From positions 1-39,959 of the forward strand of contig DATKKU010000009.1 of NCBI GenBank assembly GCA_035542755.1: a stretch of DNA of 39,959 bases. Reading direction: 5' to 3'. Source of the stretch: Candidatus Binatia bacterium. GTDB lineage: Bacteria > Patescibacteriota > Saccharimonadia > Saccharimonadales > UBA10212. Shown here in pieces: positions 11,912 to 14,953 of this stretch. Position 1 is the stretch's first letter; the number at the start of each line of letters is the position of its first letter. The notes under the pieces are model-generated. The model was not told the DNA's origin and did not search any database. It saw only the letters and a program-made list of their open reading frames with translations. The position numbers and the translations under genes are program-made.

Positions 11912-13378
11912 ATGCGTGGACGCCGCCGGTACTACACGGTGCGGGCATCCCGGTGGCTGGACGACCACTACTGGGGGCCTTTACTCGCGTACGCGAGTTG
12001 CCTGGTGGTGCTTCTCGGACTGGCCTGTGCTTTCTACGGCGCTGCCAAAGGAGTGCACAACAGCCACATCCACAGGCGCCAGCAATTCGGTCAGCTGATC
12101 TACTCGGTCGGGGAGTCAGCTCATGACAACTCGCCCAGAGCGATTGAGCTCCGCAAGCGCGCCGCAAGCAGGCTCGTGGAGCTAGACCTTCGTTACATCC
12201 AGATCTACGGCAAAAACAGTACGTACTTGCCGCTCAGCAACCACCGTCTGAAGCAGGTGCAGCAGGTAGCCAAGAATGGTCGCGCCATCAACGTGGGCGA
12301 TCTCAACGCTTGGTCCTTTAGTGCCTTTCTGGCGGCGATGGGGCGCTGGTACGTGCTGTTCACGATTTTCTCAGGTTTCGGACTATTCTTCCTGGTGAAC
12401 TTCCTGTTTCAACGGGACGACGGTCATCACAGCCGTTACCTGGCGGAGCTCCCCTGGAACAAACCCTGGCCTTGGGTCGTAACGTTGACTCTTGGGCCTG
12501 TGGGCTGGCTCGGCATGCCGTGCAGTTACCTGATGCTCGACTCCGAGGAGGAGGTTGGAGAAGAACTGCCCGTAGTCGAGCACGAAGAAGGCCTGTATGC
12601 GGACGCCGACGATCCCGCACTAGACCCTCAGGTTCTGCGCAGCTACGTCAGCGCTCCGGCTTCTGCTAGGGAGCTGTACATAAACCTGAGCATAGAGGCA
12701 CTTAGGTTGATTCGTGAAAGACGTCGGGTTCGTCTCGAGGAGAAGATTGACGAGACCCGGGATGAGATTCAGCACCACGCCGACATGGTTCGGATGTGCA
12801 ACACAGAGCTCAACGAGCTGGTGTCAAAGCGCCGAGCTCTGGACGAAGTTGTCGACGAACTCGAAAACTTCGGACCGGAGAAGCGGGCAGAGGAATTCGA
12901 AAGAATTCTCAGCCTGCCGGGCGTAATTGCGGTGCAGGTGGTCAACAGCCGCATCCGCCTAATCGTCCGCGCCAGCATCAGTTACGACGACGCTCTCTAC
13001 GATCTGGGAGATTGGCGGATGGACTTCGGTCCTGACACCACTCACATCGATGCTTACGAGCTTCGGTCCGGCATCAGACCAGAGTGGGATGGCAGCTATC
13101 CGGCCTACCGGCTTGGACGCGGCAACTTCTGCTTTGGCAACCGGGAGGATGAGATCAACCAGCACCTGAGCAAAGGCCAGTACCTGGAGGCTATGGCGCT
13201 TGCAACAGAGTGCCTAAACTCCGTCAACCGTACGGATCAAGAACGGATCCCATATGCCTTCAAGGAGGTTGCAGTCGATGCAGAACAAGAATCAGGAGAC
13301 GGTAATCAGACCGATGGTTCGGATCCCCCTGCACCTGTGGCAGAGGATGATGACCTACGTCATGCTCTGCCCGGTTGA
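11912..13378 (+). CDS. multi-TM, coiled-coil protein with a C-terminal Cys-containing alpha/beta domain (candidate non-canonical E2-like component or effector)
   Basis: 488 aa with SD aaggag 8 nt upstream. Hydrophobic segments lie at about aa 22-44, 132-166 and 185-208, followed by an acidic linker. A heptad-rich helix spans about aa 252-330. The C-terminal domain (aa 331-450) follows a helix, four strands, GNFCFG (Cys407, nt 13130-13132), helix pattern. Confidence 0.75.
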   Translation: MRGRRRYYTVRASRWLDDHYWGPLLAYASCLVVLLGLACAFYGAAKGVHNSHIHRRQQFGQLIYSVGESAHDNSPRAIELRKRAASRLVELDLRYIQIYGKNSTYLPLSNHRLKQVQQVAKNGRAINVGDLNAWSFSAFLAAMGRWYVLFTIFSGFGLFFLVNFLFQRDDGHHSRYLAELPWNKPWPWVVTLTLGPVGWLGMPCSYLMLDSEEEVGEELPVVEHEEGLYADADDPALDPQVLRSYVSAPASARELYINLSIEALRLIRERRRVRLEEKIDETRDEIQHHADMVRMCNTELNELVSKRRALDEVVDELENFGPEKRAEEFERILSLPGVIAVQVVNSRIRLIVRASISYDDALYDLGDWRMDFGPDTTHIDAYELRSGIRPEWDGSYPAYRLGRGNFCFGNREDEINQHLSKGQYLEAMALATECLNSVNRTDQERIPYAFKEVAVDAEQESGDGNQTDGSDPPAPVAEDDDLRHALPG

Positions 13379-13898
13379 GATCAACGGGTTCGGCATCGTC
13401 AACTTCGACAACCCGCAGGTCATCTTGCTAGAGGATGTGTTCATCCTCGATCAGTTGGCCACTCCGGGGAGCGTTGAAACCGACCCGCTGGCTCTCGGCC
13501 GTTACATGCACCAGTTGCACCTGGACGGCGGCGACTCCAGCAAGATCAAGTTCCAGTGGCATAGCCACGTCCAGATGCCGCCCTTCTTCTCGGCAGTCGA
13601 CAAGGACAACATCGAGAATTGGCCGGGGGACTGGCTGGTCAGCCTGGTCCTGAACCAACGCGGCGAGTTTGAGTGCCGCTACGACAGCCTGCGTCCACTA
13701 CGCTTCAGTCAAGTGCTGGAGCCAGTCATCGACGTAACGGTGACCGCCGCCGTCGCTGACGAACTGGCAAAGGAGGTGGCCGGCAAGGTCAAGCAGCCCC
13801 GGTGGGGAGGCCTTGGCACCAGGTCGCTGACGGACGGCAGCGTCGATCCAGACGCCTGGACCCCGACGACTCCGCAGTTCCTCAACCTGGCGGGCTAG
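13278..13898 (+). CDS. JAMM/MPN+ (JAB) metallopeptidase
   Basis: Conserved Glu in CPVEINGFG and an exact HxHx7Sx2D motif (HSHVQMPPFFSAVD, nt 13560-13601). The start is set at ATG 13278 because a strong SD aaggagg (13262-13268) lies 9 nt upstream. The listed ORF begins at 13254. Confidence 0.85.
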   Translation: MQNKNQETVIRPMVRIPLHLWQRMMTYVMLCPVEINGFGIVNFDNPQVILLEDVFILDQLATPGSVETDPLALGRYMHQLHLDGGDSSKIKFQWHSHVQMPPFFSAVDKDNIENWPGDWLVSLVLNQRGEFECRYDSLRPLRFSQVLEPVIDVTVTAAVADELAKEVAGKVKQPRWGGLGTRSLTDGSVDPDAWTPTTPQFLNLAG

Positions 13899-13902
13899 TC
13901 CG

Positions 13903-14571
13903 ATGCACGTAGACTACTCCGGCCAGACCGATATCTTCGACCCCAAGGCCTTTTCCTGGCCGGTGAATGTCATCGGCGTCGGGGGCATCGGCAGCGCAGT
14001 CATACTGCCGCTGGTGAAGCTAGGTCTTGCAAGTTCGCTCCATCTGTGGGACCCTGATTTCGTTGAGTTTCACAATGTGCCGGCCCAGCTGATCTATCGG
14101 GCCAGCGACGTGGGGAGAGCCAAGGTGGAAGCGGCCGCGGACGTTTTGCGGCCGTACCTTTCGCCTTCGTGCGAGCTGGTTCTCCACCAGGAACTTGTCG
14201 GCCCGCAGACACCACTCTCCGGAGTGGTCATCGGCGCCGTCGACAACATGAAAGCACGTTCCGATATATGGGAGGGGGTGAAATTCAACCCCGACATCCC
14301 TCTCTATCTCGACGGCCGAATCGGCGGCGAGCAGATGCAGCTACTTACGCTGAATCCGTTCGACATCGACGCCATCGAGTACTACGAGAAGACATGGTTG
14401 TTCCCGGATGAAGAAGGAGCCGAGCTGCCCTGCGCAGCCCGGACCGTGATTCATCCACCCGTCGTGTTGGCTGGGCATATCATCGCCCAGTTAACGCGAT
14501 TCGCACGCGATCTTCCGACCCGGCAGTACATCGACGTGCACGTTGGGACCACGCAGTTCATCGTGGTCTAG
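13903..14571 (+). CDS. minimal ThiF/MoeB/E1-like adenylyltransferase
   Basis: 222 aa with Rossmann GVGGIG (aa 25-30), WDPDFVEFHNVPAQ, GRAKVEAA and AVDNMKAR motifs. Its only cysteines are Cys90 and Cys177, and there is no CxxC pair. The start lies 4 nt after the JAB stop. Confidence 0.85.
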   Translation: MHVDYSGQTDIFDPKAFSWPVNVIGVGGIGSAVILPLVKLGLASSLHLWDPDFVEFHNVPAQLIYRASDVGRAKVEAAADVLRPYLSPSCELVLHQELVGPQTPLSGVVIGAVDNMKARSDIWEGVKFNPDIPLYLDGRIGGEQMQLLTLNPFDIDAIEYYEKTWLFPDEEGAELPCAARTVIHPPVVLAGHIIAQLTRFARDLPTRQYIDVHVGTTQFIVV

Positions 14572-14615
14572 GCGTGCCAACGATGCCACCCCGAAAGAAA
14601 AGGAGATACCGTACC

Positions 14616-14852
14616 ATGACCGAAGTCGCAGCAGAGACGACCCCGCAGTGGGTCCACGTCGCCATCCTCGGTGGCGACACCCAGCAGCTCGATTTCACCG
14701 CAGGCATGACCGTCGGGCAGGCGCTCGAGGCCGCTGGCCTCACCCGCCAGCGCGGCACCATGGTCCAGGTCAACGGCGTACCCGCCGATGACGACCAGGA
14801 GCTCGAGCCGAACTCCGCGGTCCAGATCACCACCCAGGTCAAGAACGGCTAG
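14616..14852 (+). CDS. ubiquitin-like beta-grasp protein (ThiS/MoaD/Ubl-like), C-terminal Gly
   Basis: 78 aa from ATG 14616 (SD aaaggag 14599-14605). It has a ThiS/MoaD-like pattern (MVQVNGVPA...LEPNSAVQITTQVKNG-stop). The listed ORF starts at GTG 14574, which would add a basic 14-aa extension. Confidence 0.75.
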   Translation: MTEVAAETTPQWVHVAILGGDTQQLDFTAGMTVGQALEAAGLTRQRGTMVQVNGVPADDDQELEPNSAVQITTQVKNG

Positions 14853-14874
14853 CGCCGCTCGCGACCCCGGGAAC

Positions 14875-14898
14875 CCGTTAGCTTTTCGGAGCTAACGG
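14875..14898 (+). terminator. hairpin 1 downstream of the Ubl gene (8 bp stem)
   Basis: CCGTTAGC-ttttcgga-GCTAACGG read directly. No U-tract. Confidence 0.35.
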
Positions 14899-14904
14899 TG
14901 GGTC

Positions 14905-14953
14905 GAACACCGTGGGCGAGAGATTGAAATACATCTCCTCGCCCACGGTGTTC
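14905..14953. terminator. hairpin 2 at the island right edge (16 bp perfect stem, 17 nt loop)
   Basis: GAACACCGTGGGCGAG ... CTCGCCCACGGTGTTC. It lies between the convergent Ubl and purM genes and has no clear U-tract. Confidence 0.45.

What the first reader, a model, noticed from the sequence alone, without database searches (positions are those of the whole stretch)
14616..14852. Ubiquitin-sized (78 aa) beta-grasp protein ending in a single exposed Gly (KNG-stop), not GG and with no pro-peptide
The C-terminus reads ...SAVQITTQVKNG-stop, so the activating glycine is already exposed. This contrasts with systems where a JAB peptidase must trim a C-terminal extension (CysO/Mec+, some polyubiquitin-like precursors). 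An intact JAMM peptidase nonetheless sits in the same operon. That suggests a deconjugating or regulatory role rather than maturation. The start-codon choice matters: ATG 14616 has a good SD, while GTG 14574 would add a Lys/Arg-rich tail (PPRKKRRYRT).
Basis: partly seen in the sequence, partly recalled or inferred. Interest (0 to 1): 0.6.

Follow-up and report, generated by a model that had tools for sequence, protein, structure and literature searches.

The report
Ubiquitin-like tag with ready-made glycine end
A 78-residue ubiquitin-like protein in a very small bacterial genome is made with its reactive end glycine already exposed and sits in a four-gene protein-tagging cassette; it is a real but fairly ordinary variant of a kind known from bacterial anti-phage systems.

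Summary
Window 14616-14852 encodes a 78-aa protein that ends ...QVKNG-stop. It folds as a beta-grasp (AF2 pLDDT 83; SAMP1 Z 9.3), and its family profile matches SAMP2, MoaD, TtuB and ThiS.

It is the last gene of a foreign-GC cassette: a membrane E2-like Cys protein, a JAB with an intact JAMM motif, a 222-aa ThiF-type E1, then the Ubl. ATG 14616 is the supported start.

I recognised 30 distinct related Ubls in 87 loci. Seven end in an exposed Gly, and at least five of those cassettes keep a JAB. Most of the others carry tails of 1 to about 140 residues, or are tandem or fused precursors.

The same genome holds a second cassette whose Ubl ends KGG-RR. So pro-peptides come and go while the JAB stays.

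This arrangement is already in print for Bil systems. Type I BilA ends in an exposed Gly, and mature E. aridi BilA ends Ala-Gly. The Asn-Gly end is a rare but recurrent variant (3 of the 149 best representatives).

The scan has noted the same kind of cassette on other DNA (e1-879325; crAss-like phages). Conjugation itself is untested.

Verdict: a new variant of a known kind, of moderate interest.

The parts
14616..14852 (+). Ubl gene: 78 aa with a beta-grasp fold. The flexible tail is Q74-V-K-N-G78; the terminal Gly codon is 14847-14849 and the stop is 14850-14852.
14601..14605 (+). AGGAG Shine-Dalgarno-like motif 10 nt upstream of ATG 14616.
   Evidence: read from the sequence; start supported by L012 and P0005
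14574..14615 (+). In-frame upstream stretch (GTG 14574, ATG 14583) that would add a Lys/Arg-rich extension. It is not conserved in relatives and is probably untranslated leader.
13903..14571 (+). Minimal ThiF-type E1 of 222 aa with a single adenylation domain. It has GxGGxG and an invariant Cys177 that aligns with the Cys of E. coli ThiF in ...ERNC....
13254..13898 (+). JAB/JAMM metallopeptidase. The ORF runs from ATG 13254; a second ATG lies at 13278. The E...HxH...S..D motif is intact.
11912..13378 (+). 488-aa membrane and coiled-coil protein. Its C-terminal domain (...GNFCFGN) carries the family's near-invariant Cys and gives middling matches to the UBC/UEV/RWD fold.
14875..14953 (.). Two perfect hairpins after the stop codon: a 9-bp stem at 14875-14898 and a 16-bp stem at 14905-14953. 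Neither has a T tract. They lie at the 3' edge of the high-GC island.

Best explanation
The gene encodes the modifier of a compact ubiquitin-like conjugation cassette.

Shown here:
- It is a ThiS/MoaD/SAMP-type beta-grasp with a flexible five-residue tail that ends in a free Gly.
- It is co-transcriptionally placed behind a ThiF-type E1, an active-looking JAB and a Cys-bearing E2-like protein.
- This gene set recurs in many metagenomic loci.

Inferred mechanism:
1. The E1, probably a ThiF-like homodimer, adenylates the Gly78 carboxylate.
2. The Ubl is passed, possibly through E1 Cys177, to the conserved Cys of the membrane-anchored E2-like protein.
3. It is then attached to amino groups of targets at or near the membrane.
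4. Because the protein is made in its mature form, the JAB is not needed to expose the Gly. It most likely removes the tag from targets or from the enzymes, for recycling, editing or regulation, as BilC and Cap3 do.

In the alignment Asn77 takes the place of the first Gly of the usual Gly-Gly. The biological role is probably defence or conflict on a mobile island, but this is the weakest step.
For: Fold and family: AF2 pLDDT 83.3. Ubl-type matches in Foldseek and VIA-align. Family profile to SAMP2 at 4e-11, PF1061 at 5.5e-11, and MoaD, TtuB and ThiS.

End position: in the 23-sequence alignment, G78 falls in the column of the second Gly of GG-ended relatives.

Synteny: the Ubl lies directly after the E1 in 22 of 31 Ubl ORFs, before the E2-like or JAB gene in 8, and is fused to the E2-like protein in 1.

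Enzymes: JAB catalytic residues are invariant in 15 of 15 sequences, and the profile hits Rpn11 at 2e-10 and JAMM1 at 3e-7. E1 Cys177 is invariant in 5 of 5 sequences and aligns with the ThiF Cys of ...ERNC.... The E2-like Cys is conserved in at least 90% of 14 sequences. The E2-like model gives UBC/UEV/RWD, CdnG-E2 and Cap2 matches at Z 5.2-6.8.

Pro-peptides vary while the JAB stays.

No sulfur-carrier pathway was found. The own genome (91% complete) has no ThiG or MoaE match, and its only two ThiF genes are the two cassette E1s.

Precedent: Bil systems have an exposed or trimmed single Gly and a JAB that both trims and deconjugates (passages).
Against: - No biochemical or expression evidence: no RNA run holds the stretch.
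- P0001 alone stays below the Pfam and NCBIfam cut-offs: ThiS 19.6 bits against 22.5, SAMP2 19.7 against 27.
- The E2-like assignment is soft. Foldseek gave nothing at E<=1e-3, VIA-align Z stayed under 8, only 1 of 14 members touched UQ_con (E 0.04), and the PDB sequence search hit only coiled coils.
- The E1 reads HNVPAQ where ThiF has SNLQRQ, so the Arg is lost. It also lacks the CxxC pairs.
- JAB-less relatives still have tails (L016, L029), so the presence of a tail does not predict a JAB.
- The same short E1 and JAB pair occurs in 72 phage records, so a host-defence role is not secure.
- Whether an Asn-Gly end is accepted by the E1 is unknown.
Confidence: 0.6

Rival explanations
1. Sulfur carrier. 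The protein is a ThiS/MoaD/TtuB-like carrier whose Gly78 is thiocarboxylated by the E1 to supply sulfur for a cofactor, tRNA thiolation or a small molecule. The JAB then regulates it, as in CysO/Mec+ or SAMP systems.
For: The nearest sequence relatives of the family profile are SAMP2, MoaD, TtuB and ThiS. The E1 has ThiF architecture over residues 18-193, and its Cys aligns with the ThiF Cys.
Against: - The own genome (91% complete) has no ThiG or MoaE match.
- No rhodanese or sulfurtransferase match was seen in P0004.
- The cassette always carries a Cys-bearing E2-like protein and, in relatives, tandem or fused Ubl precursors, which fit conjugation rather than sulfur transfer.
- I did not search for TtuA/NcsA-type partners.
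Confidence: 0.1
2. The chemistry is the same, but the cassette is a phage- or mobile-element-type module rather than a host anti-phage system. It would serve the element, or some regulatory task of the cell, instead of defence.
For: - Related short E1 genes lie in 72 phage records: Flavobacterium 29, Bacteroides 29 including crAss-like genera.
- In phage FpV4 the JAB (7.5e-20) and E1 (1.8e-50) are adjacent.
- Both cassettes of this genome, and L012, differ in GC from their flanks.
- PADLOC recognises none of the four proteins as Bil, apart from a partial BilD match.
- Earlier notes of this scan call the type 'phage-type'.
Against: No phage or mobility genes flank the window cassette; the neighbours are a hydrolase and purM/E/K. 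The same is true of L012, which lies between RecG/RsmD and trigger factor. There was no plasmid hit.
Confidence: 0.2
3. The protein is longer. Translation starts at GTG 14574 or ATG 14583, giving a Lys/Arg-rich N-terminal tail on the Ubl.
For: The frame is open from 14574. Some relatives carry N-terminal extensions, for example P0006 with about 35 Pro/Glu/Ala-rich residues.
Against: - In the printed sequence I saw no AGGAG-type motif in the bases just before GTG 14574, whereas one lies before ATG 14616.
- L012 has a stop two codons upstream of the equivalent Met.
- P0005 starts at the same place.
- Residues 1-11 are already disordered in the model.
Confidence: 0.08

Closest known systems
Bil (bacterial ISG15-like) operons, Type I and II: BilA Ubl, BilB E2, BilC JAB, BilD E1
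   Same: - The same four parts.
- Eight related loci even have the Bil gene order Ubl-E2-JAB-E1.
- The reactive residue is a C-terminal Gly that is either exposed (Type I) or followed by 1-9 residues (passages).
- Mature E. aridi BilA ends Ala-Gly, also a single Gly.
- The JAB both trims and deconjugates.
   Different: - The E1 is 222 aa with one ThiF-like domain. The PADLOC BilD model is 453 positions long, and only its positions 213-317 match, at 2e-5.
- No PADLOC BilA, BilB or BilC hit.
- By profile the Ubl is nearer to SAMP2/ThiS than to ubiquitin or ISG15.
- The E2-like protein is membrane-anchored and matches no Pfam family.
- The end is Asn-Gly.
Archaeal SAMP2 / UbaA / JAMM1 (sampylation)
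   Same: It is the best sequence relative of the Ubl family (5lda_B, 4e-11). It pairs a small ThiF-type E1 with a JAMM peptidase. JAMM1 matches the cassette JAB profile at 3e-7.
   Different: From recall, SAMPs end in Gly-Gly and need no E2. Here an E2-like Cys protein is always present. The NCBIfam SAMP2 score is 18.2 bits against a cut-off of 70.
ThiS-ThiF and MoaD-MoeB sulfur-carrier pairs; CysO/Mec+
   Same: A beta-grasp with a C-terminal Gly is activated by a roughly 250-aa ThiF-type enzyme. The E1 Cys177 aligns with the ThiF Cys. From recall, Mec+ is a JAB that trims CysO.
   Different: - No ThiG or MoaE in the genome.
- An E2-like partner is present.
- The end is Asn-Gly, not Gly-Gly.
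- There is no pro-peptide.
Type II CBASS Cap2 (E2-E1) / Cap3 (JAB)
   Same: It has E1 and E2 chemistry plus a JAB that reverses conjugation. PADLOC 'E1-E2' (Cap2-type) models are the best PADLOC hits of P0004, at 6e-10. Cap2 and CdnG-E2 appear among the fold matches of the E2-like domain at Z 5.2-5.9.
   Different: There is no CD-NTase. The modifier is a dedicated beta-grasp protein. The E1 and E2-like proteins are separate.
Phage-type Ubl cassettes noted earlier by this scan (e1-879325, e1-5994809, e1-3685267)
   Same: They share the short E1 with a JAB, an E2-like protein and a small tag. I confirmed that related E1 and JAB pairs occur in Flavobacterium and Bacteroides (crAss-like) phages, and that Gly-Asn ends dominate the wider Ubl family, at 80 of 149.
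   Different: Those tags end Gly-Asn, lack a Gly, or are peptides. This one ends Asn-Gly and lies in a bacterial chromosome.

Membership tests
Bil (BilABCD) | Beta-grasp Ubl with a conserved reactive C-terminal Gly | tested here: met
   Fold; terminal Gly.
Bil (BilABCD) | E1 (BilD) with an inactive plus an active adenylation domain and a CYS insertion, about 450 aa | tested here: not met
   P0004 is 222 aa with a single ThiF domain. Only positions 213-317 of the 453-position PADLOC BilD model match, at 2e-5.
Bil (BilABCD) | UBC-fold E2 (BilB) with a catalytic Cys | tested here: inconclusive
   The Cys is conserved. VIA-align gives Z 5.2-6.8 to UBC/UEV/RWD, CdnG-E2 and Cap2. Foldseek gives nothing at E<=1e-3. 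There is no Pfam or PADLOC hit.
Bil (BilABCD) | JAB/JAMM peptidase (BilC) | tested here: met
   The JAMM residues are invariant. The profile hits Rpn11, CSN5, JAMM1 and AMSH.
Bil (BilABCD) | Recognition by the PADLOC BilA, BilB and BilC models | tested here: not met
   No such hit for P0001-P0003 or for 10 related Ubls.
Bil (BilABCD) | Anti-phage activity; conjugation to a phage tail protein | not testable with these tools
   This needs experiments.
ThiS/MoaD (Pfam PF02597) sulfur carriers | Score above the Pfam gathering cut-off | tested here: not met
   P0001 scores 19.6 bits against 22.5. Seven of the 10 relatives scanned pass the 22.5-bit cut-off (P0127, P0139 and P0006...: P0127 at 20.8 and P0139 at 21.2 do not), and the family profile hits ThiS, MoaD and TtuB structures.
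ThiS/MoaD (Pfam PF02597) sulfur carriers | C-terminal Gly-Gly | tested here: not met
   The end is Asn-Gly.
ThiS/MoaD (Pfam PF02597) sulfur carriers | Acceptor enzymes (ThiG, MoaE) in the genome | tested here: not met
   No match in the own genome, which is 91% complete; the controls were positive.
SAMP2 (NCBIfam NF041919 / Pfam PF21965) | Score above the curated cut-off | tested here: not met
   18.2 bits against 70, and 19.7 against 27. The profile-level relation is clear: 5lda_B at 4e-11.
Bub (Type I/II) | DUF6527 serine protease (BubE); E2-E1 or JAB-E1 fusions | tested here: not met
   Separate genes, and no such Pfam hit in P0001-P0004. The operon definitions come from passages of Gong et al..

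The most novel reading that the evidence does not exclude
The Asn-Gly end, and the far commoner Gly-Asn end of its relatives, may not be a neutral stand-in for Gly-Gly. It could mark a distinct, minimal conjugation chemistry. In this reading a one-domain E1 and a membrane-anchored E2-like protein attach the tag to envelope proteins or lipids, in the manner of ATG8/ATG12. The Asn next to the reactive Gly would give built-in lability or a timer through succinimide or deamidation. The system would then work in an ultra-small symbiotic bacterium that carries two copies of it.
Probability: 0.1. Interest if true: 0.75.

Novelty: new variant of a known kind. Interest (0 to 1): 0.4.

Why it matters
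If the reading is right, this is a very compact full Ubl-conjugation kit: a 222-aa E1 and a 78-aa tag made ready for use. It sits in a 0.76-Mb genome that spends about 6 kb on two such cassettes.

Its family offers a natural experiment. Close relatives have no pro-peptide, short pro-peptides, or tandem or fused precursors, and they come with and without a JAB. This separates the two jobs of Ubl proteases, maturation and deconjugation.

For the narrower point of the finding (an exposed single Gly beside a JAB), the value is mainly confirmatory, because Bil systems already show it.

Tried and rejected
- Close-relative search with P0001 alone gave only one homologue, P0005. I reached further relatives through the E1.
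- The genome-contig scan with the 5-sequence E1 alignment found no conserved stretch. A 3-sequence alignment gave 3 loci, one of which (L011, Deinococcus) is only a generic ThiF.
- My HMMs saw a Ubl in 31 of 87 loci. The other 56 are short contigs or more distant E1 clades (for example L062-L077, which are JAB-E1 pairs). A look at small neighbouring ORFs found a few further candidates ending ...KGN or ...GGQ (L046, L058, L021, L043). I did not count these.
- I dropped multi-domain or unclear Ubls (L006, L032, L038, L054, L064, L082, L090), L057 and the duplicate L017 from alignment A5.
- For representative P0048 I shifted the model end by one residue to read KNG.
- I rejected a clean 'tail implies JAB' rule, because L016 and L029 break it.
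- I rejected an 'NG clade'. By E1 identity to the window, GG-ended L013 (47%) and L009 (43%) are nearer than NG-ended L010 (37%). L006, also NG-ended, is 37%.
- The PDB sequence search with the E2-like profile gave only coiled-coil noise.
- No BilA or BilC chain was recognisable by name among the PDB hits of the Ubl and JAB profiles. This is no proof of distance.
- No RNA holder was listed for the stretch. The laid contigs show only that a second wetland sample carries 13584-14945 with one other letter.
- There was no plasmid match.
- Literature searches found no paper on this cassette type in Saccharibacteria/CPR bacteria or crAss-like phages. Supplementary tables of the Bil and Bub papers were closed and may list related operons.
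I did not test it.

Full report
**The observation**

Window 14616-14852 (+) translates to a 78-residue protein that ends ...SAVQITTQVKNG followed by TAG. An AGGAG lies at 14601-14605, 10 nt before the ATG. The frame is open back to GTG 14574, which would add VPTMPPRKKRRYRT.

The short form is the conserved one:
- The closest relative is on metagenome contig L012 (E1 63% identical, Ubl 55%). Its Ubl is also 78 aa and begins at the equivalent Met, with an in-frame TAG two codons upstream.
- The only close database homologue, P0005 (78% identical, 80 aa), starts at the same place and also ends VKNG.

**Fold and family**

P0001 alone gives only sub-threshold Pfam and NCBIfam matches: SAMP2 19.7 bits against 27, ThiS 19.6 against 22.5, and NCBIfam SAMP2 18.2 against 70.

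A 23-sequence alignment of cassette Ubls (A5) matches solved structures much better:
- SAMP2 5lda_B at 4e-11
- PF1061 1rws at 5.5e-11
- MoaD 1vjk at 2e-6
- TtuB and ThiS

AlphaFold2 on A5 gives pLDDT 83.3 and pTM 0.65, with strands at 12-17, 22-26, 48-52 and 67-73 and a helix at 33-39. Residues 1-11 are disordered and the C-terminal tail is flexible. Foldseek found 24 PDB hits at E<=1e-3; the rows it lists are Ubls or sulfur carriers (SUMO2, NEDD8, TtuB, ISG15, ubiquitin, Urm1, SAMP1, MoaD), though the listing omits further chains of entries already shown. VIA-align gave Z 9.3 to SAMP1 3po0 (rmsd 1.9 A over 68 residues) and to RnfH, 8.2 to MoaD and 7.0 to SAMP2 in its JAMM1 complex.

**The cassette**

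The Ubl is the last of four co-directional genes:
1. A 488-aa membrane and coiled-coil protein with a C-terminal Cys domain.
2. A JAB.
3. A 222-aa ThiF-type E1 (Pfam 5e-17).
4. The Ubl.

The block has 58-60% GC in a window of about 49% GC. It lies between a hydrolase gene and purM/E/K.

JAB: the catalytic residues E42, H103, H105, S113 and D116 are invariant in 15 of 15 aligned cassette JABs. The profile hits Rpn11 (2e-10), CSN5, JAMM1 (3e-7) and AMSH.

E1: it aligns with E. coli ThiF over residues 18-193. Its Cys177 is invariant in 5 of 5 cassette E1s and falls on the ThiF Cys of ...ERNC.... By my count from the printed alignment this is chain residue 184. A passage of Iyer et al. 2006 states that ThiS becomes linked to a conserved ThiF cysteine. 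The E1 reads HNVPAQ where ThiF has SNLQRQ, and it lacks the ThiF CxxC pair.

E2-like domain: it carries a Cys conserved in at least 90% of 14 sequences and is modelled at pLDDT 82.3. Foldseek gives nothing at E<=1e-3, although most of its top rows are E2 enzymes. VIA-align gives Z 6.8 to Ubc13/Mms2, 6.2 to E2S, 5.9 to bacterial CdnG-E2 and 5.2 to Cap2, mixed with UEV and RWD domains. This is suggestive, not proof.

**A second cassette in the same genome**

The 761-kb, 50-contig genome is 91% complete. It holds a paralogous four-gene cassette on contig C32, also of high GC at 58-66%. Identities to the window cassette are E1 40%, JAB 30% and E2-like 22% over 100 residues. Its Ubl (P0006, 105 aa, 32-35% identical) has a Pro/Glu/Ala-rich N-terminal extension and ends ...KIKGG-RR. 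One genome therefore carries both a ready-made and a tailed form.

**Relatives elsewhere**

The E1 is rare in the phylum sample: 3 of 400 other genomes matched at E<=1e-10. A metagenome scan gave 352 confirmed loci, of which the best 80 were kept. Iterated HMMs on 87 loci found 88 E1, 62 JAB, 40 E2-like and 31 Ubl ORFs. The 31 Ubl ORFs are 30 distinct, because L017 repeats the C32 cassette.

The C-termini of the 30 distinct Ubls fall into these groups:

| Group | Count | Loci and endings |
|---|---|---|
| Exposed terminal Gly | 7 | window, L010, L012 end NG; L013, L022, L028, L078 end GG |
| Ends GN or GA with nothing after | 2 | L053, L055 |
| Gly plus 1-3 residues | 10 | L003 RR, L016 RA, L029 RL, L018 Q, L040 C, L027 A, L025 VSL, L045 L, L049 I, L057 R |
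| Tandem Ubls with KGN junctions and 1-2 end residues | 2 | L032, L064 |
| Longer tails or fusions | 6 | L006 KPNG+23, L009 GG+6, L019 GG+17, L059 GN+31, L090 GA+about 140, L054 fused to the E2-like protein |
| Unclear | 3 | L007, L038, L082 |

Of the 7 exposed-Gly cases, 5 have a JAB in the cassette, 1 (L010) has none between the E2-like gene and the E1, and 1 contig is cut. Among JAB-less cassettes with a Ubl in view, L010 is exposed but L016 and L029 have two-residue tails. The correlation is therefore loose.

**The wider family**

The A5 profile finds 3358 representatives at E<=1e-3 and 459 at E<=1e-10. Among the best 149:

| Last two model positions | Count | With no tail | Note |
|---|---|---|---|
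| GN | 80 | 31 of 80 | all tandem Ubls |
| GG | 41 | 5 of 41 | |
| GA | 12 | 7 of 12 | |
| NG | 3 | 3 of 3 | includes P0048, a four-domain tandem with KNG junctions |
| other | 13 | | |

Seven of the 10 relatives scanned pass the Pfam ThiS cut-off. Asn-Gly is thus a rare but recurrent ending. These sequences are kin, so the counts are not independent.

**What is known**

- Passages of Hor et al. (preprint) say Type I BilA ends in a fully conserved terminal Gly, and that G163L abolishes defence. Twelve homologues have overhangs of 2-9 residues.
- Passages of Chambers et al. (preprint) say E. aridi BilC cuts BilA between Gly97 and Ala98, and that the remnant on targets is Ala-Gly. Type II BilA proteins have up to nine residues after the Gly, and BilC also cleaves conjugates.
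- Sections of Gong et al. define Bil as Ubl, E2, JAB and E1, and Bub by other parts.
- Iyer et al. 2006, Table 1 row 6d, lists Ubl, JAB, E1-like and E2-like operons.

So an exposed single Gly beside a JAB is in print. The differences here are:
- the one-domain 222-aa E1, with only a partial PADLOC BilD match;
- the absence of BilA, BilB and BilC hits;
- the SAMP2/ThiS-like Ubl;
- the membrane-anchored E2-like protein, which matches no catalogue.

**Rivals**

- Sulfur carrier: disfavoured. The own genome has no ThiG or MoaE, and its only two ThiF genes are the cassette E1s.
- Host defence: not secure. Related short E1s occur in 72 phage records, and in phage FpV4 the JAB and E1 are adjacent. 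Earlier notes of this scan describe the same kind of cassette in phages and in another small genome, with Gly-Asn ends.

**Verdict**

This is a new variant of a known kind. Conjugation, JAB function and the role of Asn77 all remain to be tested.

Noticed in passing
G000:C32, L003 3949-6890 (- strand): A second, paralogous four-gene cassette in the same 761-kb genome, also a high-GC island (58-66%). Its genes are a 460-aa E2-like protein (no transmembrane stretch evident by eye; HPHVDNGGAICFGN), a JAB, an E1, and a 105-aa Ubl ending KIKGG-RR. A cassette with identical proteins lies on metagenome contig L017.
   Followed up: partly
representatives P0010-P0158; loci L032, L053, L059, L064: Most relatives are tandem 'poly-Ubl' proteins of 2-4 domains whose junctions and ends read [IV]KGN. 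GN accounts for 80 of 149 ends and 111 of 176 junctions. Many end in Asn with nothing after it, so either Asn is removed or the reactive residue is not Gly. I have no explanation.
   Followed up: partly
L016, L029, L010, L007, L014, L047: These are cassettes in which the E2-like gene abuts the E1 with no JAB between them. Two of them (L016, L029) still encode Ubls with two-residue tails (GG-RA, GG-RL).
   Followed up: partly
L012 1986-3367: In the closest relative, the membrane part (216 aa, 24% identical to the N-terminus of P0002, E 3e-19) and the E2-like part (244 aa) are separate, overlapping genes. In the window they are one 488-aa protein. There the cassette GC (46-55%) is below the flanks (about 60%), the opposite of the window.
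   Followed up: partly
L054 2026-3315; L006 703-1314; P0108: Architectural variants. L054 has a Ubl fused in front of the E2-like protein (VKGG-SGL...). L006 is a di-Ubl whose KPNG is followed by a 23-residue tail with CxxC. One representative (P0108) has a Cys-rich tail after KGN.
   Followed up: no
window 13903-14571: The E1 reads HNVPAQ where ThiF has SNLQRQ, so the Arg is lost, and it lacks the ThiF CxxC pair. The Asn is invariant in the five cassette E1s aligned, and three of them (P0009, L005, L006) also keep the Gln and lack the Arg.
   Followed up: partly
window 14616-14852: The Ubl has a single Lys (K76, two residues before the terminal Gly) and 10 acidic residues. Self-chains through Lys would therefore be limited to that site or to the N-terminus.
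   Followed up: no
L094 (Flavobacterium phage FpV4, KT876724.1 60441-67920): The phage carries an adjacent JAB (423 aa) and short E1 (228 aa) of this family. Two genes upstream of the JAB is a 289-aa protein with a Ubl-like N-terminus by eye that ends ...KMFG. My Ubl HMM did not match it.
   Followed up: partly
L026 1522-2188: Three consecutive small ORFs after a JAB-E1 pair each end ...WKG[PK][KR]R. They may be a different kind of Gly-tailed substrate set.
   Followed up: no
window 14875-14953: Two perfect hairpins (9-bp and 16-bp stems) without T tracts lie directly after the Ubl stop, at the edge of the high-GC island.
   Followed up: no
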